Source: Eubacteriales bacterium (GTDB lineage Bacteria > Bacillota > Clostridia > Oscillospirales > CAG-272). Taken from it: 52,487 nucleotides of DNA. The notes beneath the pieces were generated by a model. It did no database searches. It had not been told where the DNA came from and saw only the letters and a program-made list of their open reading frames with translations. Shown one piece after another: positions 2,464-47,076 of this stretch; within the stretch, counting starts at the first letter, position 1, and each line of letters starts with the position of its first letter. Made by a program: the position numbers and the translations under genes. The stretch lies in the NCBI GenBank assembly GCA_045587025.1, contig JAZNBK010000044.1:1-52487 (forward strand). The letters are read 5' to 3'.

Positions 2464-2465
2464 GG

Positions 2466-2496
2466 AAAACGAGAAGTCGATTGACTTCTCGTTTTT
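2466..2496. terminator. Bidirectional intrinsic terminator
   Basis: aaaacgagaagtc-gatt-gacttctcgtttt perfect 13-bp stem between convergent genes. Confidence 0.8.
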
Positions 2497-2541
2497 GCAT
2501 TTTCTCCGTTAAGCATATCGCGCTTAACGCACCCTGGTTTT

Positions 2542-3693
2542 TTAATTAGAATGAATAACAACAGAGTTTTTAAGAGAAATTTTTACGAGACCTATATACG
2601 TTTTACCTCTGTTTATAACGAGGGGATTTCCGTTTTTATCTGTGAATTTCAAATTTGAATTTGAATCTCTGTGCCATATGATGTCCATATATTTTCCTTC
2701 GGAAATATAAAAGCCGGTACCGCCGCTCGTCACGTCCATGCTGATTTCCGTGCCGGTCGCCTTATCATACGTAATTGAATCACAGAAAAGAATGATAATA
2801 TTCTTGTAGGAAAGCGTTTTTCCGTTTAATGCATCAGAGTGGAGCGAGCCGAACTGATATCTGTCATACCCTTCGCTTGACGCGTTATATTTGAATTCAG
2901 TCGTCTGAATGGAAGAAAAGGGAATTTTTATATACGTTGAATCATTCCCCGAAAGGACCGCCTTTGAAAAATATTCAGGAAATTCAAAGGGAAGCGTTTT
3001 TTTCGAGTTGACAGGACTTAGTCCAAGAGAAACAAGTCCACGGAAAAGCTTTTCTCCGTTGGTCATAATATGATGCGGAGAGTTCCTTGATGAGTCGGAA
3101 TAGTATACGTTTGACATATTTTGAATTATGTAATCCATTGTGTCATAGTTACTGAAAGAAGTCGATTTACCTAAATCGGTAGTGCCTGCGTATGCCTGCA
3201 CGGCGCCAAATTCATTTGCAATATCGGCAAGATAGCTTCTCGTAGAGCGCACGGAGCCAATTACCAAATCGCTTGAATAATTGCACGAAATCATCATTAG
3301 CCGAGTTATCCCCGCTTCTACGGGAGCTTCAACGAGTATATCGGCGTAGCTTAATCCGAATTGCGGAAGAGAAGAAGCAGTATTGCCTACGCAGACAGAC
3401 ACAGGTCTGGCGTTTGCGACGTCTCTAGTTGCTTCCAAACCGGTCAATGGGTTTAAAAATTCCGGTGGCTTTGGCGGTTCTGTAACGGGAATTGTAGTAA
3501 CCGGCGCTACCGTAGTTTGCGGAGCGTTGGTCGTTACGTTTGTATCTGATGGGACGCCGTTTCCGTTATTTTTTTCTTTAAAGGTTAATTCGTTTAATTC
3601 ACATCCTATGCATGACGCCGAAATTATGAAAAGCGCCGTTAGAAAAACAGCTATCATAAATCCGGTCCTCATGCATTTCTTTTCTCTTTTCAT
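2542..3693 (-). CDS. DUF3048/YerB-like exported lipoprotein
   Basis: Signal peptide, T/P-rich linker, NPLTGL..RP...PQFGLSYAD...EAPVEAGITR..GSVRSTR pattern. Confidence 0.75.
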   Translation of the reverse strand: MKREKKCMRTGFMIAVFLTALFIISASCIGCELNELTFKEKNNGNGVPSDTNVTTNAPQTTVAPVTTIPVTEPPKPPEFLNPLTGLEATRDVANARPVSVCVGNTASSLPQFGLSYADILVEAPVEAGITRLMMISCNYSSDLVIGSVRSTRSYLADIANEFGAVQAYAGTTDLGKSTSFSNYDTMDYIIQNMSNVYYSDSSRNSPHHIMTNGEKLFRGLVSLGLSPVNSKKTLPFEFPEYFSKAVLSGNDSTYIKIPFSSIQTTEFKYNASSEGYDRYQFGSLHSDALNGKTLSYKNIIILFCDSITYDKATGTEISMDVTSGGTGFYISEGKYMDIIWHRDSNSNLKFTDKNGNPLVINRGKTYIGLVKISLKNSVVIHSN

Positions 3694-3746
3694 TTTTGTT
3701 TACCTCCTTGGCGTAACGCCACATAAATGAAAATTTTATTAAATTA

Positions 3747-4037
3747 TCAAGCTCGGTTTGCTCTTTCAAGCCATGCGGTTCCAAGTTCAAAAGCTTCGCT
3801 CAGACTGTTCACCATTTTTTGTTTTTCAACCGTTTGGTTTCCTGATGTGGGGATGATTTGTACCAATACCTTGTCCGGTACCTGAATTTTGAATTTTTCT
3901 ATCTCTCTGTAGCCCATTATCATCATAAAAAGATAGAATTTTTCGGACATATCCCCGTAATAAAGCTCGTTTTCCAAGCGTACTAAGGGTTGTCCCTTGT
4001 ATTCAAGGTATTTTCCTTGAATTCCTTTTGCGTTCAT
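3747..4037 (-). CDS. Hypothetical protein
   Basis: 96-aa ORF with aaggag RBS and upstream TTGACA (4115-4120) promoter on minus strand. Confidence 0.7.
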   Translation of the reverse strand: MNAKGIQGKYLEYKGQPLVRLENELYYGDMSEKFYLFMMIMGYREIEKFKIQVPDKVLVQIIPTSGNQTVEKQKMVNSLSEAFELGTAWLERANRA

Positions 4038-30052: not shown

Positions 30053-30625
30053 TTAAAATCTCAAAATTTCCAAATGCTCTAAAAGGATTTTCAGACCTAT
30101 AAAAATCAGCACGGCGCCTCCGAAAAATTCCGCCTTCGATTTGAATAGAAGCCCAAACACGTTTCCTATCTTAACGCCTAAAGCGGAGAGCGCAAAGGTG
30201 ATGCATCCTATCAAAGCGATAGATAGCCAGATGTTTACGTTTCCTTCAATACAAGCGAGAGTAACGCCAACCGCAAGGGCGTCAATGCTCGTGGCTATCG
30301 CCATCGGAAGCATACTTTTGGGAGAAAGCGAGCAGTCGGCTTTATCCTCGTCCTTTGATAACGCCTCTCTTATCATATTTATACCGATAATTCCAAGCAG
30401 GATGAAGGCGATCCAATGGTCGTATTTCGTTATATATTCGCGGAAGTTGATGCCTAAAAAGTATCCGACAAGAGGCATAAGCGCCTGAAAACCGCCGAAC
30501 CATAATCCAACTATCGACATTTGCAAAGGGTTGGATTTTTTTATTGCGAGCCCCTTGCAGATTGCGACAGAAAATGCGTCCATTGCGAGACCTACCGCGA
30601 GCAAAAAAAGTTCAAAAAAGTCCAT
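30053..30625 (-). CDS. mntP: Manganese efflux pump
   Basis: [30 protein letters not shown]. Confidence 0.92.
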
Positions 30626-31482: not shown

Positions 31483-32961
31483 TTATTGCAACTCGTGAAA
31501 AACAACTCTCAATCGCTCGGTTGGCTTGTCGTAGACAATGCTTTCTATTACCGAGTGGAGAGCTTCGTTCTTTGCCATAGGTGATATGTCTTCTCGTTCG
31601 ATCAGAGCGATAACACCGGCAATTTTCTGCGAAAATGCAACTCTATCTATGTTTGCTACTGCGACGTTCTCCGACATCTGTTCGCGGAGAGCATTAATTC
31701 TATTGAGTATTTCGTTCTTGTTCTTCCCGTACTGCTCGAGCGTGTCGACCTCCGACAAGTATGCTTCTTTTGCACGAGCAAGGCGTCGTTCTTCGGCTGC
31801 GATGAGCTTGGCATAATCGACCGGAGCTTGAGCCGTTTTTGTCGACGTTTTTTTCGGCAATATAGTAAAATCTCCGTTCTGCACGTGCGCTTTCAATGAG
31901 TTCAAGAGAGCAGCTTCTATTCTTGGCAACGTTATCGAGTGAGAAACGTGGCACGATCCTCTTGAATAATTGAAGCATTGCAGGGTGGGGCTTTTGTTTT
32001 TTCCACTCTTGGCACTCGCCATTCCTATGGTGCCGCCGCAGGTGCTGCATCGCAACAGTCCTTTAAGCATATATTCTATATTTTGTTCTCTGCGGGCGTA
32101 CTTCGGGTATGCCTTTTTCTGATAGTCGAGCCGCGCTTGAACCTCGTCCCATATTTCCATAGATATAATTGCCTCGTGCTTTCCCTCGACGGTCAGTATG
32201 TTAGCGTTATCGTAGTCGCGCTTGCTTACGGCTCTTACACCGTCAAGTGACCAGCGTATCTTCCCGACGTAGCAAGGATTCCGTAGCATATACTCTATCC
32301 AGCGATTGTCGGGTACGTTGCCGAACTTCGAACGAATGCCGCGCTTGCCGAGGTCAACGGCTATTTCACGTACTTTTTTGCCTCCGGCGTATGATGCGAA
32401 GATTTCGCGCACAATATCAGCAGCGCCGCTTTCCTCATCTGGATAATAATTTCCGTCTTTCATTATGTATCCGAAAGGCGGAGCGCAGGTCGGCTCTCCT
32501 CTGGTTGCTTTCTCGGTCATTCCTCGTGTTACTTCTTCACCAAGGTTTATCAGATAGAACTCGTCCATCCACTCGATGATGCGCTCGATGAGCGAGCCGA
32601 ACGGTCCTTCAGGTATAGATTGCGATACGGAAATTACTGAAACTCCCTTTTTTAAGAGCAAATTCTTATAGACAAGACTCTCCTCTTGATTTCTCGCAAA
32701 TCTTGAGAATTTCCATACATATATCCTGTCGAATGGACGCGTTTTTTCTTTGGCTATCGCAATCATTCGGTTGAAGTCGTCGCGTTTCTTGACGCTCTTT
32801 CCAGATATACCGTCATCGTAGAACACGTATTCGTCGGGGATATAATATCCGTCTTTAGTCGCATTTTCCCGTATCTTCTTTAATTGAGAGTCGGGCGAAT
32901 ACTCGTCCTGGCGCTCGTCAGAGACACGGATATATGCCGCGCCTATTTTTAATTCCGTCAT
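31483..32961 (-). CDS. Large serine recombinase (integrase)
   Basis: AYIRVS catalytic Ser, DDGISG, SRFARN, PPFGY recombinase domain, CSTCG Zn ribbon, coiled coil. Confidence 0.95.
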   Translation of the reverse strand: MTELKIGAAYIRVSDERQDEYSPDSQLKKIRENATKDGYYIPDEYVFYDDGISGKSVKKRDDFNRMIAIAKEKTRPFDRIYVWKFSRFARNQEESLVYKNLLLKKGVSVISVSQSIPEGPFGSLIERIIEWMDEFYLINLGEEVTRGMTEKATRGEPTCAPPFGYIMKDGNYYPDEESGAADIVREIFASYAGGKKVREIAVDLGKRGIRSKFGNVPDNRWIEYMLRNPCYVGKIRWSLDGVRAVSKRDYDNANILTVEGKHEAIISMEIWDEVQARLDYQKKAYPKYARREQNIEYMLKGLLRCSTCGGTIGMASAKSGKNKSPTLQCFNYSRGSCHVSHSITLPRIEAALLNSLKAHVQNGDFTILPKKTSTKTAQAPVDYAKLIAAEERRLARAKEAYLSEVDTLEQYGKNKNEILNRINALREQMSENVAVANIDRVAFSQKIAGVIALIEREDISPMAKNEALHSVIESIVYDKPTERLRVVFHELQ

Positions 32962-32999
32962 AGGATTTCTCCTTTAGCTAACTACTAAATTTACAGATT

Positions 33000-33121
33000 T
33001 TCAACAAATTTTAGATTATATAAAACATTTTTCGACATTTCCCGTATTATATTTCGTTCCACTTTTCGACAAAATGTGATATAAAATGACAATGGCTAAT
33101 GCCAAATTTACATTTTCAACA
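33000..33121 (-). promoter_or_regulatory. Cluster of Spo0A-box-like sites
   Basis: TGTCGAA (minus strand) at 33031-33037 and 33065-33071; TGTTGAA at 33000-33006 and 33115-33121. Confidence 0.6.
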
Positions 33122-33141
33122 TTTTGAAGGAGGACAAAAAA

Positions 33142-33384
33142 ATGACTAAAAACGAATTAGAATTGATTGAGCTCATTCGCAATAGCGAGGAGCCGGAAAA
33201 GGTGGCGGAGAAAGTCCCTAAAAAAAGCAATAATGAACAATCCCCCTATTTAGAGGAAGTTGTCCAGCTCTTGTCATTGCTTTCGCCAAGTAAGCTGGGC
33301 GAGGCAGTTAATTTTCTGGAGAAGTTAAAAGATAGCGAAGAAAGTCACGAAACTGCTTCTGCTTTTCGAGAGACAAAGAATTAA
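33142..33384 (+). CDS. Small protein, putative antirepressor resembling the repressor C-terminal helices
   Basis: aaggagg RBS; EEVVQLLSLLSPSKLGEAVNFLEKL aligns with repressor tail; overlaps repressor 3' end convergently. Confidence 0.55.
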   Translation: MTKNELELIELIRNSEEPEKVAEKVPKKSNNEQSPYLEEVVQLLSLLSPSKLGEAVNFLEKLKDSEESHETASAFRETKN

Positions 33385-33889
33385 ATGCCTTAATTATATC
33401 TTCGCCCGCTACCGCTTCGGTGGTGGGCCTTTCTTTTTCTATAAGATCGGATTTTTTTATACCAAAATAATTTGCTAACAGTTCCACTTTATCCATTCGT
33501 GGATATTTTGTGCCATTTACCCATGCGGTTACAGTGAAATAACTAATACCAAGAGCTTCGCTGATATCATTTCTGCTCTTACCTCGCAACTCCATATATT
33601 TTCTCAAGTTAGAGGCAAAAATATCCTTTTCTTCTGGACTTTTCATAAAACCGCCGGTGAGGTCGTCCGAACCGCGGGAGATTTCTTTTTCGTCCCAGCC
33701 CATGAGATAGACGGGACTTACATGCAAAACTTGAGCTAATTTTTCAATTTTTTCAGGCGGAATATTTGTAACTATATCATTTTCATATTTATATATTGCT
33801 TGTTTTGTTGTCTCTAATTGTTTCGCTACATATTCAAGGGAGAGGTTTAATCGTTTTCTTTCTTTACAGATCCTTTTTCCAATGCTCAT
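33308..33889 (-). CDS. Phage repressor with two tandem XRE/Cro-C1 HTH domains
   Basis: HTH1 SLEYVAKQLETTKQAIYKYEN..SPVYLMGW; HTH2 SRNDISEALGISYFTVTAWVNG..KSDLIE; RBS gaaaggagg. Confidence 0.88.
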   Translation of the reverse strand: MSIGKRICKERKRLNLSLEYVAKQLETTKQAIYKYENDIVTNIPPEKIEKLAQVLHVSPVYLMGWDEKEISRGSDDLTGGFMKSPEEKDIFASNLRKYMELRGKSRNDISEALGISYFTVTAWVNGTKYPRMDKVELLANYFGIKKSDLIEKERPTTEAVAGEDIIKAFNSLSLEKQKQFRDFLRYLLTSPEN

Positions 33890-33910
33890 CAACCTTCCTC
33901 CTTTCAATTT

Positions 33911-33939
33911 ATTATACACTACAGTTTTTTAGTTGTCAA
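33911..33939 (-). promoter_or_regulatory. Leftward (repressor) sigma-A promoter
   Basis: TTGACA-17-TATAAT on minus strand. Confidence 0.8.
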
Positions 33940-34735: not shown

Positions 34736-35854
34736 ATGAAAAATCGAGCGTATAAATTTCGGATATACCCCAATCGAGAACAAGAAAACTTAATACAGCG
34801 CACGTTTGGCTGTAGCCGTTTCGTGTATAATCACTATCTTGCTTACCGTAAGGAACTTTATGAGACAAAGGGCGAGAGTGCTAATTTTTATGCGTGTTGT
34901 AAAGATTTAACTAAATTAAAGAGCGAGTTGACTTGGTTAAAAGAGGTAGAAAACCGTGCATTACAAACGTCTCTCAAAGACCTTGACAATGCATATCGGA
35001 ACTTTTTCCGCAGAGTCAAGCAAGGGGCTGATAAAGTAGGATATCCGAAATTTCAGAGCAAGCACGATAAAAACAAATCATATAGAACTAACTTTGCGAA
35101 TGGTAATATCAAAGTATTATCTAATTCGGTTAAGCTTCCCAAGCTCGGACTCGTTAAGTGCTGTGTTTCAAGGGAAATACAAGGACGGATACTTTCTGTT
35201 ACTGTCAGTCAGAGCACATCGGGAAAATACTTCGTGTCTATATGTTGTACCGATGTCGAAATAGAGCCATTGCCAAAAACCAACAAGAGCGTAGGCATTG
35301 ACTTAGGTATTCACGAGCTTGCAATCACATCAGACGGAACTAAATATCCCAATCCTAAACACTATAGCAAATCGCAGAAGACGCTCGCACGGCTTCAGCG
35401 TCAGCTCTCCCGAAAAACAAAGGGGAGTAATAACCGCGAGAAAGCCCGTATCAAAGTAGCGAGACTTCAAGAGCATATCGCCAATCAAAGAAACGATATG
35501 ATGCATAAAATGACTATAGACTTAATCCGCAACTATGACGTAATCTGTATAGAGGATTTAACACCCTCGAATATGGTAAAAAATCACAAGTTAGCAAAGG
35601 TTATCTCCGACGCTTCTTTTGCGGAGATACGCCGACAGCTCGAATACAAAGCGGAGTGGTACGGAAGAAAGATTTCTGTTATAGACCGCTTCTATCCGTC
35701 GAGTCAGTTGTGTTCGTGTTGTGGTTATAAAAACACTGAAACAAAAAACTTGAACATAAGAGAATGGACTTGCCCGATATGCGAGCAAGCCCACGATAGA
35801 GATATAAATGCCTCAATCAATATTTTAAATGAGGGATTAAAAGTTTTAGCTTAA
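34736..35854 (+). CDS. tnpB: IS200/IS605-family RNA-guided endonuclease TnpB
   Basis: [17 protein letters not shown]; RuvC GIDLG, IEDL, DRDINA; Zn finger CSCCG..CPIC. Confidence 0.95.
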
Positions 35855-36618: not shown

Positions 36619-37053
36619 ATGGCATATCGTTGTTTAGATTGTGGACATATATTTGAAGAAGGAGAGCAGGTAGAGTGGATAGAGATGCACGGCTTCACAG
36701 GAGGCGGTGGCGAACACTTTAGTGGTTGTCCTCTTTGTCGTGGCGAATACGAAGAAACTGTACGCTGCGCTAAATGCGGCGCGGAACACCTTAAGGACGA
36801 GCTTAACGGCGGCGTCTGCGATGAGTGTATAGACGAGTGCAGAAAAGACTATAAGACCTGTTTTTACATATCGTTAGGTGATAGAGAAGAGGTCAAGCTG
36901 AGTTCCTTTCTTCTTACCTTGTTCGACGCGAAGGATATCGAGCAGGTGCTTCTTGAGCACATTAAAAGGAATTGCCCCGATATAGATTGCTCTGAATATA
37001 TCGACAATGACATCTGCGACTTCGGTGAGAAGCTCGCTAAGGAGAGCGCATGA
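36619..37053 (+). CDS. Zn-finger hypothetical phage protein
   Basis: CLDC, CPLC, CAKC, CDEC pairs. Confidence 0.7.
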   Translation: MAYRCLDCGHIFEEGEQVEWIEMHGFTGGGGEHFSGCPLCRGEYEETVRCAKCGAEHLKDELNGGVCDECIDECRKDYKTCFYISLGDREEVKLSSFLLTLFDAKDIEQVLLEHIKRNCPDIDCSEYIDNDICDFGEKLAKESA

Positions 37054-37853
37054 GAAAGGTTAAGGACACCGCCACAGAGTATCACGAAAGCGGAGCGATA
37101 AATCGTTCCTCGCTCTTTATGATGAGTAAAAGCCCCGCACATTTCAAATATTCTATGGAAAACAGAGAAGAAACTGATGCTTTACGTTTTGGCAGAATGT
37201 TTCACACCTTCGTATTAGAGCCGGAAGAATTCGAAAAGCAGTACCTTCTCATAGAACGGATAGATAGAAGGACGAAAGAGGGCAAGATTCTTCTCGAGCA
37301 GGCGGCAGAAATCGGGAAGCAGATTATAACTGCCGAAGAATATGACGTTATAAACAAAATGAAGGAAAGTATCTTCAGTAATAAATACGCCTCGGCTCTC
37401 TTGCGAGGAGAAAAAGAAATTTCGTACTATTGGCAGGACGAGATGACGGGTATCGAGTGTAAGTGCCGTCCTGACTGCATCACTCCGATAGGCGAGCTTA
37501 ATATCATTGTAGACCTAAAGTCTTGCGACAATGCCTCTACGGAGGAATTTATGAAGGCAGCTCTCCGATACGGATATGACTTGCAGTCGGCACAGTATAA
37601 GACGGGCGTCGAGCTCGTAGAGCAGAAGCCGCACAAATTCGTTTTTATAGCGGTAGAGAAAAAACCTCCCTATGCTTTGAATATCCTCGAAGCAGACGAA
37701 ATATTTATCCGAAAGGGCTACGACGATTTCAGGATCTATTTAGGTATGCTGAAGTATTGTCGTGAGACGGATAATTGGTACAGTTACACGGGCGAAACGG
37801 GAAGACCTAACGTGCTTAATCTCCCCGCTTGGCTTATTAAAGAATATGAATAA
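37050..37853 (+). CDS. RecE/exonuclease VIII-like PD-(D/E)xK nuclease (DUF3799-like)
   Basis: SPAHF, CKCRPD, IVDLKS, YGYDLQSAQY, FIAVEK. Confidence 0.85.
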   Translation: MRKVKDTATEYHESGAINRSSLFMMSKSPAHFKYSMENREETDALRFGRMFHTFVLEPEEFEKQYLLIERIDRRTKEGKILLEQAAEIGKQIITAEEYDVINKMKESIFSNKYASALLRGEKEISYYWQDEMTGIECKCRPDCITPIGELNIIVDLKSCDNASTEEFMKAALRYGYDLQSAQYKTGVELVEQKPHKFVFIAVEKKPPYALNILEADEIFIRKGYDDFRIYLGMLKYCRETDNWYSYTGETGRPNVLNLPAWLIKEYE

Positions 37854-37873
37854 AAGTTTGAAAGGGAAAACTT

Positions 37874-38530
37874 ATGCAAAACGCAGAAGCAAAAAAAGAA
37901 ACTACCGAATTAGCTGAAATTCAGCAGACAAAATCCTTAACTAATGTTTGGGAAAATAAAGATGCATTCAATCAAATGTTAAGAGCTTCGCAAATGTTGA
38001 GTCAGACAAGCATTATACCTCAGAACTATCAAGGAAAACCTCAAGACTGCTTTGTGGCTATTGAGATGGCAAATAGAATGGGCATATCGCCTATGGTGGT
38101 TATGCAAAATATGTATGTCGTAAAAGGCAAACCTTCTTGGGCAGGACAAGCGTGCACTATGCTGATAAACAGTTGTGGTAAATTTCGTGACGTGAAGCAC
38201 ATTTATACAGGCCAGAAGGGAACTGATAAAAGAGGTTGCTATGTTGAGGCTACCCGAATTTATGATAACGAAATAATTCAAGGTGTAGAAGTTACAATGG
38301 ATATGGCAAAATCAGAAGGTTGGACTTCTAACCCGAAATGGCGAAATATGCCTGAACTGATGTTGGCGTATCGAGCGAGCGCGTTTTTTGCAAGGGTACA
38401 TTGCCCAGAGGCATTGATGGGCGTTCATACCGAAGACGAAATATATGATGCCTACGAAAGGCCTCAAAGAACCTCTATCGAAATAGCAGAAGAGATTGAT
38501 AAGATGGAGGACACTGTAAATGATAAATAA
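37874..38530 (+). CDS. RecT-like single-strand annealing protein
   Basis: IPQNYQGKP..VMQNMYVVKGKPSW..W..MPELMLAYRA; between exonuclease and ssb. Confidence 0.75.
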   Translation: MQNAEAKKETTELAEIQQTKSLTNVWENKDAFNQMLRASQMLSQTSIIPQNYQGKPQDCFVAIEMANRMGISPMVVMQNMYVVKGKPSWAGQACTMLINSCGKFRDVKHIYTGQKGTDKRGCYVEATRIYDNEIIQGVEVTMDMAKSEGWTSNPKWRNMPELMLAYRASAFFARVHCPEALMGVHTEDEIYDAYERPQRTSIEIAEEIDKMEDTVNDK

Positions 38531-38919: not shown

Positions 38920-39378
38920 ATGATTATCTATTGCGATACGCGGCAGAAAAACGGAAAGCATACCGTAAAGCATAATCAGATGCGCTCGTTAGGATACGAG
39001 CTTCGCTCAAAGGTTCTTGACGTGGGCGACTATATGATAGAGGGGGACAACTCTATATCGGTCGACACTAAGCAGGATCTCACCGAGGTTTATAGCAATA
39101 TATTCAACGATAAGAGCCGCTTTATGAAGGAGGTCCGCAGAGCTTATTATAGCAAGGTGAAGCTGTACGTCCTCATAGAGCACGGCGGACCGATAAAGAA
39201 GCTCGAGGACGTGTGCGCTTGGCGTCCAAAGTACGGATACCATTCGGGGCGCGAGGCAATGGAAAGAATGATGAAAATTCATATGTCTTACGGCGCCGAA
39301 TTTCTCTTCTGCGACAAGCGCGTAACGGGAAAACGGATAATAGAAATACTGACGAAGGGTGAAGGTTATGTACGATAA
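38920..39378 (+). CDS. ERCC4-domain nuclease
   Basis: DTRQK, LDVGDY, VDTKQDL, VLIEHG. Confidence 0.75.
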   Translation: MIIYCDTRQKNGKHTVKHNQMRSLGYELRSKVLDVGDYMIEGDNSISVDTKQDLTEVYSNIFNDKSRFMKEVRRAYYSKVKLYVLIEHGGPIKKLEDVCAWRPKYGYHSGREAMERMMKIHMSYGAEFLFCDKRVTGKRIIEILTKGEGYVR

Positions 39379-39919
39379 TAAGGCAGAAAAGATAAAGGAT
39401 AGAATTAATATGCAAGACGTCCTTCTGAAGTACGGCTTCGAGCCAAAACGCAGAATGAAGTGTCCTCTACATAACGGAAACGATTATAATTTTGAGGTAA
39501 AAACCAATACCTTCACATGCTATTCCCGATGCGGAGGCGGTGACGTCATTACCTTCGTGCAGAAATTGTTTTCGCTCTCGTTCTCGGAAGCGCTGACGCG
39601 TATAGACGAGGATTTTGGGCTTGGGTTATACAAGAGGCAGGGAGAACGCGAAAAGCTCTCTGCGGCAAAGAGAAACTACGAGGAGAGCAGGAAGCGTCGC
39701 GAAAGACAAAAAGAAACCGAGCGTGTGAATAATAAGTATCACGCCGCCCTTGACGAATACGCCCGTCTGGACCGTCAGATGATAGATTTCCGACCAGAGA
39801 GTCCGGACGAGCTACCGAGAAGGGAATTTATAGAAGCATTAAAGAATATCGAAACCGCGGGCTATATGCTCGGCTTGGCGGAAGAGGAGGTTTATTTAAA
39901 TGAGCAACGTGCAAATTGA
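39368..39919 (+). CDS. CHC2 zinc-finger protein (primase Zn-binding domain only)
   Basis: CPLH..FTCYSRCGGGDVITFV; no TOPRIM domain. Confidence 0.8.
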   Translation: MYDNKAEKIKDRINMQDVLLKYGFEPKRRMKCPLHNGNDYNFEVKTNTFTCYSRCGGGDVITFVQKLFSLSFSEALTRIDEDFGLGLYKRQGEREKLSAAKRNYEESRKRRERQKETERVNNKYHAALDEYARLDRQMIDFRPESPDELPRREFIEALKNIETAGYMLGLAEEEVYLNEQRAN

Positions 39920-41753
39920 GATACCGCAGTTTACTGCGAAGGAATATAAAAGCTCCTCTGCGCCGTATGAGTGGCTGTATCAGTATAAAGACGATAAATT
40001 TATGCTGCGTCAGCTTTGCGAGCAGATGAAGGATAATGCCGGGGCTGTCGGTGTTCGCGCCTTTATGGCAATGTGGAATTCCTACTGCGAGATGCAGGCA
40101 GAGAAAAAAGGATTCTCGCTTGAGAACGCGACGAACTTCGAGGACCAGCCACTTGAACTCTTTTCCGGCTCGTATATCTGCGACGAGATGGGTGTAGCCG
40201 TTATGGATAGATACGGATACGAGCAGACGGTATGCAGACACCCGATACTTCCTTGTGAGCGTCTTGTAAATATCGACACGGGCGAGGAACGTCTGAAGAT
40301 AGCTTATAAGAACAGTACAAGGAACAGGACTTGGCGAGAGCTTATAGCGGAGAAGGCGGTAGTCGCTTCATCAAGCGCGATACTCCAGCTTTCGCAGAAG
40401 GGCGTAGTGGTGAATAGTGAGAACGCGAAGGCACTCTCTACGTACTTGCTTGAGCTTGAACAGTTAAATTATGACTTTATACCCGAGCAGAAGTCGGTAG
40501 GTCGCTTGGGGTGGGTAGGAAAGCACGGATTTTCTCCTTACGTAGAGGACCTTGTGTTTGACGGTGAGAATAACTTTAAGCATATCTTTGCAGCCGTCAG
40601 ACCGAGTGGTGACCGCGACACGTGGGTAGAAGCAATGAAAAAGGTCAGAGCAGAGAAGAGCGCAGCTCGTTTCGTTCTCGTCGCTTCCTTTGCAAGCGTC
40701 ATATTAGAGCCTTGCGGTCTTTTACCTTTCTTCCTGCACATCTGGGGACAAACCGAGGTCGGTAAAAGCGTAGCTCTTATGATAGCGGCTTCGGTGTGGG
40801 CTTCGCCAAAGCTCGGAGATTTTATAACCACGTTCAACTCTACTATGGTAGGTCAAGAGATGATGGCAACCTTCCTCAATTCCTTACCGATGTGCATAGA
40901 CGAGCTTCAGATTCAGTCAGGCTCGGGTGTACGCGAGTTCGATAAGATAATATATCAGCTCACCGAGGGCGTCGGCAAGACACGAGGAGCGAAGCAGGGA
41001 GGCTTGCAGAAGCTCAACACGTGGAGAAATTGCTTTATTACAAACGGCGAAAGACCTATCAGTTCGGAGAATAGCGGAGGTGGAGCTATAAACCGTATTA
41101 TCGAGATAGAGTGTACCGAAAAGGTATATAGTGACCTCGTAGGACTATGCACGGTCATCAATAATAATTTCGGCTGGGCAGGCGCAGAATTCGTCGGCTG
41201 GCTTCAGACAGACGGTGCATTTGAACGAATAAACGCGCTTCAGAAGGAGTATTATCACGAGCTTCTGAAGGTGGATAGCACGGACAAGCAGGCGGCATCG
41301 GCTTCAGCTATCCTTGCCGCAGACCATATCGTGACGGAGCTTATATTCAAGGATGGAAACAATCTCACGGTAGAGGATATGGAAAAGATAATGCAGAAAA
41401 AGAGCGAGGTAGACGTTAATGTGAGGGCTTATGATGCCATTATGGATATGGTAAGCTCTAATATAAATCACTTCAAGAAAAACGATTTCGGCGAGTATCA
41501 AGGCGAGGTGTGGGGCAAGCTCGACGGAGATTATGTATACATTATAAAATCTGTTTTTGACCGCGAAATGCAGAACAGGGGCTATAACTCCACAGCGTTC
41601 CTGTCATGGGCTAAAGCTAATAATTTGTTGTTATGTAGCGGAAATAAAACAACTCGCGTAACACGAATTATAGGTCCTTCTACGCGGTGCGTTTGCATTA
41701 AGAAAGACGAAAACCTTTGGGAAAAATGGGACGGAAAGAACCCCGAATTTTAA
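39900..41753 (+). CDS. DUF927-domain replication protein / helicase-like initiator
   Basis: SVGRLGW, Walker A GQTEVGKS, IDELQ, GKTRG, TNGE, GGAINR; C-terminal winged-helix-like region. Confidence 0.82.
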   Translation: MSNVQIEIPQFTAKEYKSSSAPYEWLYQYKDDKFMLRQLCEQMKDNAGAVGVRAFMAMWNSYCEMQAEKKGFSLENATNFEDQPLELFSGSYICDEMGVAVMDRYGYEQTVCRHPILPCERLVNIDTGEERLKIAYKNSTRNRTWRELIAEKAVVASSSAILQLSQKGVVVNSENAKALSTYLLELEQLNYDFIPEQKSVGRLGWVGKHGFSPYVEDLVFDGENNFKHIFAAVRPSGDRDTWVEAMKKVRAEKSAARFVLVASFASVILEPCGLLPFFLHIWGQTEVGKSVALMIAASVWASPKLGDFITTFNSTMVGQEMMATFLNSLPMCIDELQIQSGSGVREFDKIIYQLTEGVGKTRGAKQGGLQKLNTWRNCFITNGERPISSENSGGGAINRIIEIECTEKVYSDLVGLCTVINNNFGWAGAEFVGWLQTDGAFERINALQKEYYHELLKVDSTDKQAASASAILAADHIVTELIFKDGNNLTVEDMEKIMQKKSEVDVNVRAYDAIMDMVSSNINHFKKNDFGEYQGEVWGKLDGDYVYIIKSVFDREMQNRGYNSTAFLSWAKANNLLLCSGNKTTRVTRIIGPSTRCVCIKKDENLWEKWDGKNPEF

Positions 41754-42544
41754 AAAATGTTACACCTGTTACACTTGTTACACCTAAAAACATACCTACT
41801 TATACGCGAGAAGATATATACATAAGCGTGTAAATATGAGTATATATTTTAACCGCGTGTAAAGACAAAAAAACAGGTGTAACAGGTGTAACAGTGTAAC
41901 AAATGATAAAAGACAAAGATAAATAGCAGCATTTTTGTGTAACACTTTACTCTTGAGGTTGTGTAACAAGTGGTTACAAAAGGAAATTCCAAAGTGGGAA
42001 GAGTGGGACGGAAAGAACCTCGAATTTTAAAAAATGTTACTGGTGTTACTGGTGTTACTGTTAAAAATACACCTACTTATATATGTGAGAATATATACGC
42101 GCGAATACGCAAAAAAACACCTATATATTTTCTTCGCGTGGAAAGATGAAAAAACACCAGTAACACCAGTAACATCAGTAACAAGTATCAAAAAAGCAAG
42201 ATAATAAGCCAACTTTTTACTGTTACCACAAAATTAAGTTATGTGTAACAAGTGGTTACAAAAGGAAATACCGAGATGGGAAGAATGGGACGGCGACCCT
42301 AAATTTTAATTAAAATGTACTCAGTGTACTCGCTGTACTCGGTAAAAAGATACCTACTTATATAGGGGAAACATATATATGCGCGTGAATACGCGAAGAA
42401 TAACTATATATTTTTATCGCGTGGGGAAAGAAAAATTACCGAGTACACCGAGTACAGTGGGTACAAAATCAAAAGAACAAGCATAACAAGCCACTTTTTC
42501 ACGTTCCCGCTTTTTGTGGGCACGTGGTACAGGTGGGTACAAAA
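41718..42544. repeat. Three tandem ~280-bp origin-like units with unit-specific inverted iterons
   Basis: Units start 41718, 41995, 42277; iterons 3x TGTTACACC / 3x TGTTACTGG / 3x TGTACTCGG with inverted triplets ~90 bp downstream; shared AT-rich core. Confidence 0.9.
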
Positions 42545-42563
42545 CATTATTTAGGAGGGTAAT

Positions 42564-42677
42564 ATGGCAACATTACAGGAATACGAAGCATATAAAAGAT
42601 ATTTGCAGGGGTTGAATTTACCCTGTGCGGAGTATGAAAAGCGCCTGCGCGAATGGTGCAGACGAAATAATTTCTAA
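42564..42677 (+). CDS. 37-aa hypothetical phage protein (not in ORF track)
   Basis: aggaggg RBS; MATLQEYEAYKRYLQGLNLPCAEYEKRLREWCRRNNF*. Confidence 0.7.
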   Translation: MATLQEYEAYKRYLQGLNLPCAEYEKRLREWCRRNNF

Positions 42678-42719
42678 TTTGATAACCAAAAATTTTTTAT
42701 AAAAGAAAGGAAAAGAAAA

Positions 42720-43055
42720 ATGAAGAATGAAAAGGAAATGTTAGAAGAACTGTTAGTCGAGGCAGCAAAGGTAATGGACTGCCCGCAGCCGCACGAGGTA
42801 GCCGAATATCTGCTCGAAAACGGAGTTAAGCTCCCGCCTGTAAAGATAGGTCAGACGGTATATTCCGCTATTTCTCCCGAGATTGATATAGACGAGCATA
42901 CCGTGACCGAATGGAAGGTCAAGGGCATTTTGTGCGAGGAAAACTGCTATTATGCGGAAAACTCTGACGGAGAGTTCTTCGTGGTCGGTAGTGACCTCTG
43001 CAAGCTCACCCGCAGACAAGCCGAATCCGCAGCTAAAGGCGCTGCTAAAAAATAA
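42720..43055 (+). CDS. Hypothetical phage protein
   Basis: AEYLLENGVKLPPVKIGQTVY pattern seen in phage accessory ORFs. Confidence 0.7.
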   Translation: MKNEKEMLEELLVEAAKVMDCPQPHEVAEYLLENGVKLPPVKIGQTVYSAISPEIDIDEHTVTEWKVKGILCEENCYYAENSDGEFFVVGSDLCKLTRRQAESAAKGAAKK

Positions 43056-44218
43056 TGGGACAGGGCAGAAACTGGTCAAAAGAAGAGGAAGCGCAACTCT
43101 CGGAAGAGTGGGGTACATATAGCATTGACACTCTCGCAAGACGACTTGGAAGGTCACGTAATTCCATTATAGTCCGCGCTCAACGTCTTCATTTGGGTGG
43201 GCATATGGAGAGTTCGGATAAAATCTCTTTTAATGTCCTTTTGAAAGAACTTGGGCTGAAGGGCGGTTATGAATGGGAGTTGCGAAAATTCACCGAAGCA
43301 GGACTCAAAATCTATATGCATCGAGTGAAGGATAACTCCTTCAGAATGGTAAAAATAGAGGATTTCTGGAAGTTCGCAGAAAATAATAGGCATCTTATAG
43401 ATTTTTCTCGCCTTGAAAAAAATGCTCTCGGCGCAGAGCCCTCGTGGGTGAAATCGAAAAGAACTGAAGACTTTAAGCGTAAGTGTGTCGTAAAGCCCCA
43501 TAATTCCAAATGGACCGCGGAAGAGGATGGAGAGCTCCTTCGACTTCTACGCGCCTACCGTTATACCTACCCCGAGATAGCGGACCGTCTGCGCCGATCT
43601 GAAGGTGCTATACAGCGACGTGTGCTGGACCTTGGAATAAAGGAAAGACCTCTCAAAGCCGATAATCACACTCTTTGGACTGAGGATCAGATAAAAAACC
43701 TCTGCCAAATGATTAAAGCCGGAAGCAATTACGAGAGTATGAGCCGCGTCCTCGGAAAATCCTCAAAGGCAATACGCGGCAAGGTGTTTACGGTTTATCT
43801 TACCGAGAACCTTAATAAAGTAAGAAACCTTATCTGTGACGGTGAATGGGGAGATAATCGTCCGGAGCGCTGCCTGAAGCAAAAGCTCTTTATGACGGTA
43901 GAAGAAAAGACCGAGGTAAAAGAAACGATAAGCGTATTGGCGGGGCTGCTCGCTTATAGAATCCGAAAGCATTTCGACGATCAGGATAACTGGCAGAGGA
44001 ATCTTTGTCAGAATTGGGACGACGTGAGGGGTTGCGCCGTATGTGAAACCGACTGCGACGCCTGCTCCTCGTTTACAAGAATCCGACCTCAATACTGTGT
44101 GAGGTGTGGCGCCACGTTCTACGAACGCAAGGAAAACCGTGTTTGTGAAAGATGCAGAATTCAACGAAAAAAGCAGGCATATAGAAAATATCTATACATA
44201 AGGAGTAGAGAGCGATGA
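43055..44218 (+). CDS. Multi-HTH (Myb/SANT-like repeat) protein with C-terminal Cys cluster
   Basis: WSKEEEAQL, WTAEEDGEL, WTEDQIKNL each followed by helix..LGRS/LRRS/LGKS; CVRCG..CERC. Confidence 0.65.
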   Translation: MGQGRNWSKEEEAQLSEEWGTYSIDTLARRLGRSRNSIIVRAQRLHLGGHMESSDKISFNVLLKELGLKGGYEWELRKFTEAGLKIYMHRVKDNSFRMVKIEDFWKFAENNRHLIDFSRLEKNALGAEPSWVKSKRTEDFKRKCVVKPHNSKWTAEEDGELLRLLRAYRYTYPEIADRLRRSEGAIQRRVLDLGIKERPLKADNHTLWTEDQIKNLCQMIKAGSNYESMSRVLGKSSKAIRGKVFTVYLTENLNKVRNLICDGEWGDNRPERCLKQKLFMTVEEKTEVKETISVLAGLLAYRIRKHFDDQDNWQRNLCQNWDDVRGCAVCETDCDACSSFTRIRPQYCVRCGATFYERKENRVCERCRIQRKKQAYRKYLYIRSRER

Positions 44219-45299: not shown

Positions 45300-45710
45300 A
45301 TGAGAAACGAAAAAGGACAATTTTGCGAAGGGAACGAAATAGGCAAGGAAACAAGGTTTTCTGAAGGTCACGAATTTTCTAAAAAATATAATGATAAATA
45401 TTGCGATGAAATGGTGAAATATTTCCATACTTATTCGGGATACCCTACGTTTGAATTGTTTGCCGATAGCATAGGTGTTATTGACGATACACTTCGTAAT
45501 TGGTGCGAGGAATTCCCCCAATTTCGCCACGCTTATAAGCGTTGTATGAATATTCAGAAGGGAAAACTGATAGACAACACGCTTTCCGAGAAGTATAATG
45601 CTAATTTTGCGAAATTTGTAGCCGTAAACTGTCACGGAATGAAGGAACGTATTGAGCAGGACGTAAATGCTAACGGCGCTCTTGAGGTCAATATAAATGT
45701 CATCGATTAA
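45300..45710 (+). CDS. terS: Terminase small subunit
   Basis: RNEKGQF..GN, KY..YCDEMVKYF, HTH DTLRNW; directly upstream of terL. Confidence 0.8.
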   Translation: MRNEKGQFCEGNEIGKETRFSEGHEFSKKYNDKYCDEMVKYFHTYSGYPTFELFADSIGVIDDTLRNWCEEFPQFRHAYKRCMNIQKGKLIDNTLSEKYNANFAKFVAVNCHGMKERIEQDVNANGALEVNINVID

Positions 45711-47076
45711 CATAGATATAACGAAAAAGCAGAGGGCATTTATTGGTGCGACGGAAGACGAGGTGCTTTTTGGTGGCGCTGCGGGCGGAGGAAAGTCCTA
45801 CGGTCAGATAGTAGATGCTTTGCTATTCGCCTTGAAATATCCCGGCTCGAAGCAGCTTATTCTGAGACGCACATTTGCGGAGCTTGATAAATCGCTCATC
45901 AGAACGGCGTTATCCTTATATCCGCGCGAGATATTCACGCTTAATTCTTCCTCGCACGTGGGAAGGTTTAAGAACGGCTCTTGTATAGATTTCGGTTACT
46001 GCGCAAGCGAAAACGACGTCTATCAGTATCAGAGCGCAGAATATGACGTTATTCGGTTCGACGAGCTCACCCACTTTACACAGGGTCAGTATATATATCT
46101 TATATCACGAGTGAGAGGGGCAAATAGCTTTCCAAAGCAGATTAAATCCTCGACAAACCCTGGTGGAGTAGGTCATACTTGGGTAAAGGAGCGTTTCGTA
46201 GACCCGGCGCCACCTAACACGAGCTTTGCCGGGACTCAAGGTATGAAACGGATATTTATACCGTCTTTCGTAGACGATAACAAATTCCTGATGAGCGCCG
46301 ACCCGAACTATAAGCAACGTCTGCTTGCACTTCCCGAACACGAGCGCAGGGCATTGCTTGAAGGTGATTGGGATATCTTTGAAGGACAGTATTTCGACGA
46401 GTTTAATAGAGATTTGCATGTCTGTTTGCCGTTTGACATACCGAAGGAGTGGCGAAGGTATATAGCGATTGACTACGGTCTTGATATGCTCGCGGCTTAT
46501 TGGATAGCCGTAGATAGCACGAGAACTGCCTTTGTCTATAAAGAATACTGTAAGTCAAACCTTCCGATAAGCACGGCTGCAAAGGCAATATTAGAGTATA
46601 CCGACGAGGACGAGGAAATATATGCTACGCTTGCGCCTCCTGACCTGTGGAGCAGAAGCCAGGAAACAGGAAAAAGCAAAGCAACACTCTTTTACGAGGC
46701 AGGGCTTGAGCTTACGAAATCAAATAACGATAGGGAAGCCGGTTGGCTCGCTATCAAGGAGCTTATGCAGAAGGATAGCAACGGTACGAGCAGATTACGG
46801 ATATTTAACACCTGCACACAACTGATTAAGCACCTTCCTATGCTTCAGAGAGACCCGAGAAAACCTACGGACACACAAAACGAGCCGCACGAGATAACGC
46901 ATAGCCCCGACGCATTGCGATATTTCGCTATATATTGGATTTATCCCACCGACGATAAAAAAGAAAGACGCATCAAATATCGTCCCGACCAGCTGGAAGA
47001 TTATTTGAACGCGTCTGAAGATGAGAGGGCATACCTTGTAAAGAAATACGGAGGAGAACCGTCTAACTATTATTAA
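45697..47076 (+). CDS. terL: Terminase large subunit
   Basis: GGAAGGGKS Walker A, FDELTHF Walker B, STNPGG, IDYG nuclease, HSPDALRY. Confidence 0.95.
   Translation: MSSINIDITKKQRAFIGATEDEVLFGGAAGGGKSYGQIVDALLFALKYPGSKQLILRRTFAELDKSLIRTALSLYPREIFTLNSSSHVGRFKNGSCIDFGYCASENDVYQYQSAEYDVIRFDELTHFTQGQYIYLISRVRGANSFPKQIKSSTNPGGVGHTWVKERFVDPAPPNTSFAGTQGMKRIFIPSFVDDNKFLMSADPNYKQRLLALPEHERRALLEGDWDIFEGQYFDEFNRDLHVCLPFDIPKEWRRYIAIDYGLDMLAAYWIAVDSTRTAFVYKEYCKSNLPISTAAKAILEYTDEDEEIYATLAPPDLWSRSQETGKSKATLFYEAGLELTKSNNDREAGWLAIKELMQKDSNGTSRLRIFNTCTQLIKHLPMLQRDPRKPTDTQNEPHEITHSPDALRYFAIYWIYPTDDKKERRIKYRPDQLEDYLNASEDERAYLVKKYGGEPSNYY

What the first reader, a model, noticed from the sequence alone, without database searches (positions are those of the whole stretch)
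41718..42544. Array of three replication origins, each with a different iteron code, behind a single initiator gene
Seen: three tandem units (periods 277 and 282 bp) with the same scaffold (acctacttata..atatata..tatatatttt..cgcgtg) flanked by three direct 9-bp repeats and three inverted copies. Unit 1 TGTTACACC (41758-41784 / 41876-41901), unit 2 TGTTACTGG (42035-42061 / 42157-42183), unit 3 TGTACTCGG (42316-42342 / 42439-42465). All six repeats in each unit change together on both arms, which random decay of a duplication would not produce. Established: inverted iterons around an AT-rich core just downstream of a helicase-initiator gene is the origin layout of SaPI/P4-type replicons, where iteron sequence sets Rep specificity. 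Inference: only one unit is cognate for the encoded Rep; the others match initiators of related phages and act as a master key (replication in trans on a co-infecting relative's Rep), as decoys titrating a competitor's Rep, or as an ordered record of origin swaps. Best candidate for an undescribed system in this window.
Basis: partly seen in the sequence, partly recalled or inferred. Interest (0 to 1): 0.92.

Follow-up and report, generated by a model that had tools for sequence, protein, structure and literature searches.

The report
Three stacked phage origins, recombination relics
A gut-bacterium prophage carries three complete but differently coded replication origins in a row behind one initiator gene, and the leftover gene ends between them suggest they piled up when the initiator's DNA-reading domain and its origin were swapped by recombination.

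Summary
Window 41754-42545 holds three tandem SaPI-type origin units, each with 3 direct and 3 inverted 9-bp iterons around a conserved AT-rich core. Each unit has its own iteron sequence. They lie directly behind a DUF927 + HTH_56 initiator-helicase gene of an integrated prophage.

Units 2 and 3 are each preceded by an in-frame remnant of about 45 nt of another rep allele's 3' end. These remnants match the C-termini of the Reps whose first 500 residues are 96.6% identical to the window's Rep, while their DNA-binding domains are only about 70% identical.

- A relative's contig carries unit 3 alone, joined to the same downstream genes.
- Unit 2's core is closer to another MAG's single origin (85%) than to unit 1 or unit 3.
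- None of 86 related loci has an array.
- Across 57 relatives, iteron sequence covaries with the Rep C-terminal domain, which points to unit 1 as the cognate origin.

Best reading (about 0.6): a recombination scar that records swaps of the specificity cassette. Units 2 and 3 are silent unless a matching Rep is supplied. A selected master-key or decoy role is untested. This is one case from a MAG, and no reads were available to check the assembly.

The parts
39900..41753 (+). rep: 617-aa initiator-helicase. DUF927 covers aa 108-371. The C-terminal HTH_56 'Cch HTH' winged-helix covers aa 505-604.
   Evidence: Pfam gives E 2.2e-40 and 4.1e-18. PHROG 8841 primase/helicase gives 7.9e-150. PDB 8tch 'Pathogenicity island protein' gives 3.9e-21 and 5dgk gives 4.1e-6.
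41412..41711 (+). Coding region of the Rep C-terminal DNA-binding domain. This is the mosaic part.
   Evidence: HTH_56 match at these coordinates. Against P0002-P0005, residues 1-500 are 483/500 identical, but residues 501-602 are only 69-71/102 identical.
41758..41784 (+). Unit 1 left arm: 3 direct iterons (TGTTACACC, TGTTACACT, TGTTACACC).
41785..41875 (.). Unit 1 AT-rich core with the conserved boxes ACCTACTTATA, TATATATTTT and CGCGTG.
   Evidence: GC 0.28-0.33
41876..41901 (-). Unit 1 right arm: 3 inverted iterons.
   Evidence: (I2, I5)
41937..41981 (-). Unit 1 distal iteron-like sites (41937-41944 and the pair at 41961-41981).
   Evidence: (D5). A distal pair about 55 nt after the right arm recurs in relatives.
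41960..42011 (+). Junction 1/2: distal pair followed by the start of a foreign rep tail. It is 90% identical to junction 2/3, and the first 28 nt are identical.
   Evidence: (D3)
41980..42030 (+). Remnant of a foreign rep 3' end (pseudo-tail 2). It reads in frame as KEIPKWEEWDGKNLEF then a stop.
   Evidence: The tails of P0002-P0005 begin KEIPKWEEW.
42035..42061 (+). Unit 2 left arm: 3 direct iterons (TGTTACTGG, TGTTACTGG, TGTTACTGT).
42062..42156 (.). Unit 2 AT-rich core.
   Evidence: It is 85% identical to the core of L161's single origin.
42157..42183 (-). Unit 2 right arm: 3 inverted iterons.
   Evidence: (I1, I4)
42242..42293 (+). Junction 2/3: a unit-1-type distal pair (42243-42263) followed by the start of pseudo-tail 3.
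   Evidence: (D3, D5)
42262..42309 (+). Remnant of a foreign rep 3' end (pseudo-tail 3). It reads in frame as KEIPRWEEWDGDPKF then a stop.
   Evidence: Compare the P0003 and P0005 tails.
42316..42342 (+). Unit 3 left arm: 3 direct iterons (TGTACTCAG, TGTACTCGC, TGTACTCGG).
42343..42438 (.). Unit 3 AT-rich core.
   Evidence: From 42345 onward it is collinear with a relative's contig.
42439..42465 (-). Unit 3 right arm: 2 good inverted iterons and one variant.
   Evidence: (I3)
42524..42544 (-). Unit 3 distal pair, directly before the ribosome-binding site of the next gene.
   Evidence: (D5)
42564..42677 (+). First downstream ORF (37 aa) behind AGGAGGG. It has no family match.
39359..39919 (+). 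Primase-like gene upstream of rep. Only the CHC2 zinc ribbon is detected.
   Evidence: Pfam Zn_ribbon_DnaG 9.4e-9; PHROG primase families.
37050..38530 (+). Phage recombination pair: a PDDEXK exonuclease (37050-37853) and a RecT-like annealing protein (37874-38530). It is a plausible engine of short-homology recombination.

Best explanation
The region is the replication-origin region of an integrated temperate phage that uses a SaPI/Cch-type self-loading initiator-helicase.

How it works (inferred from the family, not assayed here): Rep hexamers bind the two inverted iteron arms of unit 1 through the C-terminal winged-helix domain. They melt the AT-rich core and load themselves.

Units 2 and 3 are complete origins of two other specificity classes. 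They were stacked here when the specificity cassette (Rep C-terminal domain plus its origin) was replaced by recombination.
- The left crossover lay in the conserved rep body, near codon 500.
- The right crossover was an illegitimate or short-homology join from the end of the incoming origin's distal pair into the last roughly 15 codons of the resident rep.
- The old rep tail and the old origin were therefore kept.

The second junction is a near copy of the first. This fits an unequal crossover at the distal pairs between two two-unit forms, possibly aided by the phage's own exonuclease/RecT pair. Unit 3 is the origin that belongs with the downstream genes.

With only the resident Rep present, units 2 and 3 are replicated passively. 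They would be recognised only if a related phage supplied a matching Rep.
For: Shown here:
1. Family and layout: DUF927 + HTH_56, similarity to a solved SaPI protein, and three origin units directly behind rep.
2. Units 2 and 3 are preceded by in-frame remnants of rep 3' ends. These differ from the resident tail. They match the tails of P0002-P0005.
3. P0002-P0005 are 483/500 identical to the window's Rep in residues 1-500, but only 69-71/102 in the DNA-binding domain. P0007 is 408/500 in residues 1-500 but 79/102 in that domain. The resident Rep is therefore a mosaic.
4. A 17,088-nt contig of run X1 aligns to the rep body. It then has 119 unlike letters, a 31-nt tail match and 58 unlike letters. 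It then runs collinear from 42345 through unit 3's core, right arm and downstream genes, with 36 differences in 956 nt. That is one origin in the place of three.
5. Core identity is u2-L161 0.85, u2-u3 0.76, u1-u2 0.66 and u1-u3 0.64. The units are not each other's closest kin.
6. Across 57 relatives, iteron distance tracks C-domain divergence after controlling for the N-domain: partial Mantel r 0.47, with 0 of 999 permutations reaching it. The nearest C-domain (L161, 76%) has an iteron one base from unit 1's. L111 and L114 (43% Reps) share unit 1's GTTACAC word.
7. Single origins are the rule. 0 of 86 related loci show tandem origin units. A scaffold profile hits each of 18 related loci once and the window three times.
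8. The junctions share only short similarity with true rep genes, and the longest exact repeat in the array is 28 nt. This argues against a k-mer mis-join.
Against: - Units 2 and 3 look fully intact: 3+3 iterons and all core boxes are present. A pure relic should decay. They are therefore either recent or maintained.
- The contigs of the closest Reps (P0002-P0005, 91%) could not be fetched. The cognate Rep class of unit 2 is therefore unknown, and two-unit intermediates have not been seen.
- In the X1 contig, the 58 letters that should hold the left arm did not align. Only unit 3's core and right arm are shown to be shared.
- Units 1 and 2 share the first six iteron bases (TGTTAC), so some cross-binding by the resident Rep is not excluded.
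- The conserved rep tail could itself be part of the cis-acting origin module rather than a scar.
- The covariation test uses related loci that are not independent.
- No reads of the source sample were available, so the array rests on one MAG contig.
Confidence: 0.6

Rival explanations
1. The array is a selected multi-specificity origin bank. Units 2 and 3 are kept because they let the (pro)phage be replicated in trans by initiators of related phages. Alternatively they titrate those initiators (a Per-like decoy), or they let the phage change its Rep domain by one crossover without losing a working origin.
For: All three units are intact, with complete arms and core boxes. Rep-iteron specificity classes are many and fine-grained in this family. 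Reps with tails like the two remnants exist in public data. The element is a prophage, where superinfection by kin is plausible.
Against: No array was found in 0 of 86 related loci. The rep-tail remnants and near-identical junctions are what recombination would leave without any selection. There is no second Rep of the family in this genome. No functional data exist.
Confidence: 0.2
2. All three units are used by the resident Rep. Its specificity is relaxed to the shared TGT..AC core, giving a redundant or stronger origin.
For: Units 1 and 2 share TGTTAC. A unit-1-type site sits in unit 2's distal pair at 42243. One SaPI Rep showed low discrimination between origins in vitro (passage read in PMC9371898).
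Against: Among relatives, one-base iteron differences go with changes in the C-domain. For example, Reps with RRF versus RNM in the wing region pair with TGTGGCAC versus TGTGGGAC. Unit 3's word differs from unit 1's at most positions after TGT. Relatives manage with one unit.
Confidence: 0.08
3. The array is an assembly artefact: three co-occurring strains with different rep-ori cassettes were chained into one contig.
For: The source is a metagenome-assembled genome. No run holding more than 27% of the sampled words was found, so the reads could not be checked. The exact Rep is a singleton in the protein collection.
Against: Strain collapse swaps homologous segments and does not chain them. 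Each junction joins a distal pair to the last roughly 45 nt of a rep gene, with only a few bases of similarity to a true rep sequence. The longest exact repeat in the array is 28 nt, so the usual k-mer sizes and read lengths resolve it. The remnants lack the rest of their rep genes, as real deletions would.
Confidence: 0.07
4. The array arose by in-situ tandem triplication of one origin, followed by divergence and concerted change of the iterons.
For: The unit length is regular (277 and 282 bp), the scaffold is shared, and the junctions are near-identical.
Against: Unit 2's core is closer to another genome's origin (0.85) than to units 1 or 3 (0.66, 0.76). The two remnants match rep alleles other than the resident one. 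Six copies per unit changing in the same way without a matching Rep is implausible.
Confidence: 0.05

Closest known systems
SaPI (Staphylococcus aureus pathogenicity island) replicon: Rep initiator-helicase with the ori immediately downstream
   Same: The Rep has DUF927 plus a C-terminal winged-helix domain. The origin lies directly after the rep stop codon. Iterons sit on both sides of an AT-rich region and point in opposite directions. A primase-like gene lies upstream. (Passages read in PMC9371898 and PMC7581432; Pfam and PDB matches.)
   Different: The element here is a full temperate prophage of a gut Clostridia-type MAG, not a satellite. The iterons are 9-bp units. There are three heterospecific origins in tandem, with rep-tail remnants between them. 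The passages I read describe one ori per island.
SCCmec Cch / Cch2 helicases and their putative origin
   Same: Pfam names the Rep's C-terminal domain after Cch (HTH_56). A DUF927 helicase binds repeats downstream of its own gene (PMC7581432 passages; 5dgk match).
   Different: Similarity to 5dgk is weak (E 4.1e-6). The SCC origin described there has three direct 5-nt iterons, with no array of different origins.
Lambdoid phage O protein / ori iteron specificity modules (recalled, not read here)
   Same: The initiator's DNA-binding domain and its iterons co-vary, and they are exchanged as a module between related phages.
   Different: In lambdoids the ori lies inside the O gene, so a swap replaces both at once and leaves no stacked old origins. 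The protein family is also different.
Per (phage-encoded resistance): cloned phage origins that protect by titrating replication factors (recalled; only a search listing was seen)
   Same: An origin of another phage's specificity carried in the cell could sequester that phage's initiator.
   Different: Per is a laboratory construct on multicopy plasmids. Here the origins are single-copy in a prophage, and no protective effect is shown.
Extra iteron clusters of iteron replicons (P1 incA, F incC, P4 crr; recalled)
   Same: Additional initiator-binding repeats lie beside or away from the origin.
   Different: Those clusters have the same specificity as the origin and serve copy control or cis-activation. 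Units 2 and 3 have different words and full origin anatomy.
Vibrio PLE RepA/ori modules under attack by phage ICP1 (abstract of PMC7145576 seen in listings; the rest recalled)
   Same: Satellite and phage conflicts can select for exchange of the initiator DNA-binding domain together with the origin.
   Different: The initiator family is different. Tandem retention of old origins is not known to me there.

Membership tests
SaPI/Cch-type self-loading initiator-helicase replicon | Rep with a DUF927 helicase/ATPase domain | tested here: met
   PF06048 E 2.2e-40, 139.5 bits against a cut-off of 22.6.
SaPI/Cch-type self-loading initiator-helicase replicon | C-terminal winged-helix DNA-binding domain | tested here: met
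   PF18662 HTH_56 E 4.1e-18, aa 505-604.
SaPI/Cch-type self-loading initiator-helicase replicon | Sequence relationship to a solved SaPI Rep or Cch | tested here: met
   8tch 'Pathogenicity island protein' E 3.9e-21 over aa 142-553; 5dgk E 4.1e-6.
SaPI/Cch-type self-loading initiator-helicase replicon | Origin immediately downstream of rep, with at least 2 iterons on each side of an AT-rich region in opposite orientation | tested here: met
   Unit 1 starts 5 nt after the stop codon, with 3+3 iterons around a core of GC about 0.3. The same design is seen in relatives.
SaPI/Cch-type self-loading initiator-helicase replicon | Primase gene upstream of rep | tested here: inconclusive
   Only a CHC2 zinc ribbon was found in the 186-aa product of 39359-39919. 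PHROG primase families match its N-terminal part. No catalytic primase domain was detected.
SaPI/Cch-type self-loading initiator-helicase replicon | Rep binds its iterons specifically and the fragment supports replication | not testable with these tools
   Only indirect evidence: C-domain/iteron covariation, partial Mantel r 0.47 with 0 of 999 permutations.
Phage satellite (SaPI/PICI) | Lacks its own packaging and structural genes | tested here: not met
   A large terminase (45697-47076) lies downstream. A serine integrase and a CI-like repressor lie upstream. It reads as a prophage, although the contig ends inside it.
Same-specificity extra iteron cluster (incA/incC/crr type) | The extra repeats have the same sequence as the origin's iterons | tested here: not met
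   The unit 2 and unit 3 words differ from unit 1's. Only one unit-1-type site recurs, at 42243.
In-situ tandem duplication | The copies are each other's closest relatives | tested here: not met
   Core identity is u2-L161 0.85, above u2-u3 0.76 and u1-u2 0.66.

The most novel reading that the evidence does not exclude
The three-origin array is maintained by selection as a bank of origin specificities. It would make a prophage replicable by, or a sink for, the initiators of two other Rep classes circulating among gut Clostridia phages. It would also let the phage switch its Rep DNA-binding domain by a single crossover without ever lacking a matching origin. This would be an unreported strategy in conflict or cooperation between phages over replication.
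Probability: 0.17. Interest if true: 0.8.

Novelty: new variant of a known kind. Interest (0 to 1): 0.45.

Why it matters
If the array is real, it is a natural snapshot of how phages exchange the initiator-specificity cassette (Rep winged-helix domain plus iterons). The old origins and the last codons of the old rep alleles are still in place, so the crossover points can be read directly.

It also supplies three closely related origins on one scaffold with different iteron words. Together with the roughly 60 Rep/iteron pairs collected here, these could serve to work out a recognition code for HTH_56 domains.

Should the extra origins respond to other phages' Reps, that would be a new route of replication-level interaction between a prophage and superinfecting kin.

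Tried and rejected
- blastn (distant mode) of rep plus the array against 50,697 phage records gave no match. tblastn found only Reps at or below 44% identity in cultured Clostridia phages. I did not examine their origins.
- IMG/VR scans gave no useful hit. The scaffold word gave 74 stretches, a unit-2 iteron triple gave 32 and a unit-3 triple gave 31. None of these loci encodes a Rep homologue by tblastn, so they are chance or unrelated repeats. IMG/VR holds only 3 relatives of this Rep.
- The metagenome and genome scans returned no Rep above 80% identity. Their origins therefore remain unseen.
- Family-level and order-level genome searches (400 genomes each) gave 4 and 6 further, distant loci.
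- My first strict repeat detector missed two of the six arms. The second found one unit in 26 of 76 loci and never more than one. Its low sensitivity is why I added the profile search, the k-mer search and the self-BLAST search.
- In read laying, runs X2-X4 gave only short pieces, and nothing covered 41640-41975 or most of unit 2. Absence of cover is not evidence.
- Rfam gave no family at E <= 0.1.
- The promoter scan showed no enrichment: 3 found against 3.6 expected. No + strand terminator was found in the array.
- Literature searches for tandem or duplicated heterologous origins in phages returned nothing on point in the listings I saw. Supplements are closed and may hold origin maps I could not see.
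- I considered and dropped small minus-strand ORFs inside the units, because they are not in register between units.
Full report
**What is in the sequence**

The stretch 41754-42545 lies between the stop codon of a 617-aa ORF (39900-41753) and the ribosome-binding site of a small ORF at 42564. It contains three head-to-tail units, with start-to-start spacing of 277 and 281-283 bp. The units align at 78% mean column identity.

Each unit has the same parts:
- three direct 9-bp repeats;
- an AT-rich core of about 90 bp with the invariant boxes ACCTACTTATA, TATATATTTT and CGCGTG;
- three inverted copies of the same 9-mer;
- a spacer of about 55 nt;
- a distal pair of iteron-like sites.

The repeat word differs by unit: TGTTACAC(C) in unit 1, TGTTACTG(G) in unit 2 and TGTACTC(GG) in unit 3.

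The words are confined to the array.
- Unit 1's 8-mer occurs 9 times in the 52-kb window, all within 41758-42250. Shuffles give 0.47 on average, and 0 of 100 reach 9.
- Unit 2's 8-mer occurs 7 times, 6 of them in the unit. Shuffles give 0.82, and 0 of 100 reach 7.
- Unit 3's 7-mer occurs 6 times, 5 in the unit. As a bare count this is not significant, since 11 of 100 shuffles reach 6. Its support is the phased, inverted clustering.

**Context**

- The window is a whole contig of a 1.5-Mb, 64-contig MAG.
- Its left 30 kb is chromosomal, with a gyrase/topoisomerase IV subunit and methionine synthase.
- From about 31.5 kb it is a prophage. In order it carries a serine integrase, a CI-like repressor, an IS605-type OrfB/TnpB, a PDDEXK exonuclease, RecT, an ERCC4-type nuclease, a primase-like zinc-ribbon protein, the 617-aa protein, the array, regulators and a large terminase. 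The contig ends inside the prophage.
- The 617-aa protein has DUF927 (E 2.2e-40) and a C-terminal HTH_56 'Cch helix-turn-helix' domain (E 4.1e-18).
- It matches a solved 'Pathogenicity island protein' (8tch, E 3.9e-21) and 5dgk.
- Passages I read in PMC9371898 and PMC7581432 describe the SaPI replicon. Rep is a self-loading helicase. Its C-terminal winged-helix recognises iterons. The ori lies immediately downstream of rep, with iterons on both sides of an AT-rich region pointing in opposite directions.
- Unit 1 fits that description exactly, and so do the single origins behind related Reps.

**The detail that decides the reading**

Units 2 and 3 each begin with an in-frame remnant of about 45 nt of a rep 3' end, stop codon included.
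- 41980-42030 reads KEIPKWEEWDGKNLEF-stop.
- 42262-42309 reads KEIPRWEEWDGDPKF-stop.
- The resident rep ends DENLWEKWDGKNPEF-stop.

Among 120 listed homologues (of 5,511 with E <= 0.001), the four closest full-length Reps are P0002-P0005, at 91% identity. They end KEIPKWEEW(N/D)GDP(E/K)F.

Those four are 483/500 identical to the window's Rep over residues 1-500. They are only 69-71/102 identical over residues 501-602, the DNA-binding domain. P0007 shows the reverse: 408/500 in residues 1-500 but 79/102 in that domain.

The resident Rep is therefore a mosaic. Its body belongs to the lineage whose tails survive as the two remnants. Its C-terminal domain comes from elsewhere.

**Evidence from a relative**

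No public run held more than 27% of the sampled words of 41000-43300, so the source reads could not be inspected. Laying Logan contigs of four runs showed one 17,088-nt contig of run X1 with this pattern:
- it aligns to 40800-41581 with 126 differences in 782;
- then it has 119 unlike letters;
- then it matches 31 nt of the remnant start (41978-42008);
- then it has 58 unlike letters;
- then it is collinear from 42345 to 43300 with 36 differences in 956, that is, unit 3's core, right arm, distal pair and the downstream genes.

17,088 nt is also the longest contig on record for P0006, a 973-aa Rep with an intein. That the two are the same contig is my inference.

This relative has one origin where the window has three, and it is the unit-3 origin. 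Its left arm fell within the unaligned 58 letters, so I cannot say that its left-arm iterons are identical.

**The units are not a local triplication**

In the core columns, unit 2 is 85% identical to the single origin of L161, which lies in a different MAG behind an 80%-identical Rep. It is only 76% identical to unit 3 and 66% to unit 1. Units 1 and 3 are 64% identical.

The two junctions are near copies of each other: 90% identical over 52 nt, with the first 28 nt identical. Unit 2's distal pair is of unit-1 type.

The simplest history has two steps.
1. An incoming segment ran from about codon 500 of rep through unit 1's distal pair. It replaced the resident C-domain. Its right end joined, by a few bases of similarity, into the last roughly 15 codons of the old rep.
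2. A later unequal crossover at distal pairs between two such two-unit forms produced the three-unit array.

The phage's own exonuclease/RecT pair is a plausible agent. This history is inferred, and no intermediates were seen.

**Which unit is cognate**

I extracted the Rep ORF and the dominant inverted 7-mer within 330 nt of its stop for 81 loci, the window included.

The iterons have the form TGT plus five or six variable bases, and they differ widely between relatives.

For 57 loci I compared iteron distance with protein divergence. These had at least 4 copies, a GT anchor in the consensus and a Rep ORF of at least 560 aa. The other 24 were dropped for failing one of these.
- Iteron distance correlates with C-domain divergence (Spearman 0.68) more than with N-domain divergence (0.55).
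- The partial Mantel correlation controlling for the N-domain is 0.47, with 0 of 999 label permutations reaching it.
- The loci are related to one another, so this overstates independence.

The C-domain nearest the window's (L161, 76%) has an iteron one base from unit 1's. L111 and L114, only 43% identical as Reps, share unit 1's GTTACAC word.

In a human-gut subgroup, Reps with RRF versus RNM in the wing region go with TGTGGCAC versus TGTGGGAC. Two RRF loci gave ambiguous words.

Together with adjacency, this points to unit 1 as the resident Rep's origin. It is an inference, not a binding result. Units 1 and 2 share TGTTAC, so partial cross-recognition is possible.

**How unusual it is**

- A profile of the origin scaffold, built from 7 seeds that match by construction, hits the window three times. 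It hits each of 18 related loci once on the + strand.
- A strict arm detector found one unit in 26 of 76 loci and never two.
- Self-BLAST of the 1.6 kb after rep found no origin-sized direct repeat in 80 relatives. Eight of them had under 600 nt downstream. L092 and L093 have a 34-nt repeated iteron set within one origin.
- Six further loci also had none.
- Some loci are duplicates of one contig, for example L083 and L232.
- The genome has no second DUF927 or HTH_56 protein above threshold.

**Artefact?**

I could not check reads. Against an artefact:
- strain collapse exchanges homologous segments rather than chaining them;
- each junction joins a distal pair to the last codons of a rep gene, with only a few bases in common with a true rep sequence;
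- the longest exact repeat in the array is 28 nt.

I leave about 7% for this reading.

**Verdict**

These are three heterospecific SaPI-type origins behind one initiator, and probably only the first is cognate.

A selected master-key or decoy function (about 0.2) is not excluded. The extra units are intact, and the setting in a prophage makes it conceivable. But there is no evidence for it, and no second instance.

In the listings of three literature searches I saw no description of tandem origins of different specificity with rep-tail remnants. Supplements were closed.

I rate it a new variant of a known kind, with interest 0.45. It is a neat natural record of cassette exchange and a useful substrate for a Rep-iteron code.

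Noticed in passing
P0006 and P0009; L161:~1000-3987: Two close Rep homologues are about 970 aa long and carry a LAGLIDADG_3 domain (PF14528). This looks like an intein inserted in the initiator-helicase. L161's Rep ORF is 987 aa.
   Followed up: no
window 34736-35854 (+): An IS605-type OrfB/TnpB (OrfB_IS605, Cas12f1-like TNB, HTH_OrfB_IS605) sits inside the prophage's early region, between the repressor and the recombination genes.
   Followed up: no
window 31483-33919 (-) and 30053-30625 (-): The left end of the prophage holds a large serine recombinase (Resolvase + Recombinase + Zn_ribbon_recom) and a two-HTH CI-like repressor, next to a chromosomal MntP gene. The contig ends inside the prophage at 52487, so the right attachment site is not in the window.
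   Followed up: partly
L122-L136, L141-L143, L102, L157, L162, L144, L147: In a human-gut subgroup of Reps, a three-residue difference about 13-15 residues before the conserved (E)CV motif goes with a one-base iteron change. RRF or RRM pairs with TGTGGCAC. RNM, RNL or KNM pairs with TGTGGGAC. This is a candidate recognition-code contact. L137 and L155 gave ambiguous words.
   Followed up: partly
window 41727-41743, 42004-42020, 42286-42302: The conserved rep tail encodes W-E-x-W-D-G. At the DNA level this is TGGGA repeated at 9-bp spacing, the same period as the iterons. The tail might therefore be part of the cis-acting origin module rather than only coding sequence.
   Followed up: no
L006:5719-5885: A relative's downstream gene holds a 6-nt / 30-nt tandem coding repeat of about 26 copies, rich in Gly, Asp and Tyr codons.
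   Followed up: no
L092/L093, +9 to +204 after rep: These relatives repeat the left-arm iteron set in direct orientation about 162 nt downstream, instead of as an inverted distal pair. This is a variant origin design.
   Followed up: no
window 42564-42677 (+): A 37-aa ORF with a strong ribosome-binding site lies directly after the array. It has no Pfam or PHROG match. The distal pair of unit 3 abuts its ribosome-binding site, so Rep binding there could affect its expression.
   Followed up: no
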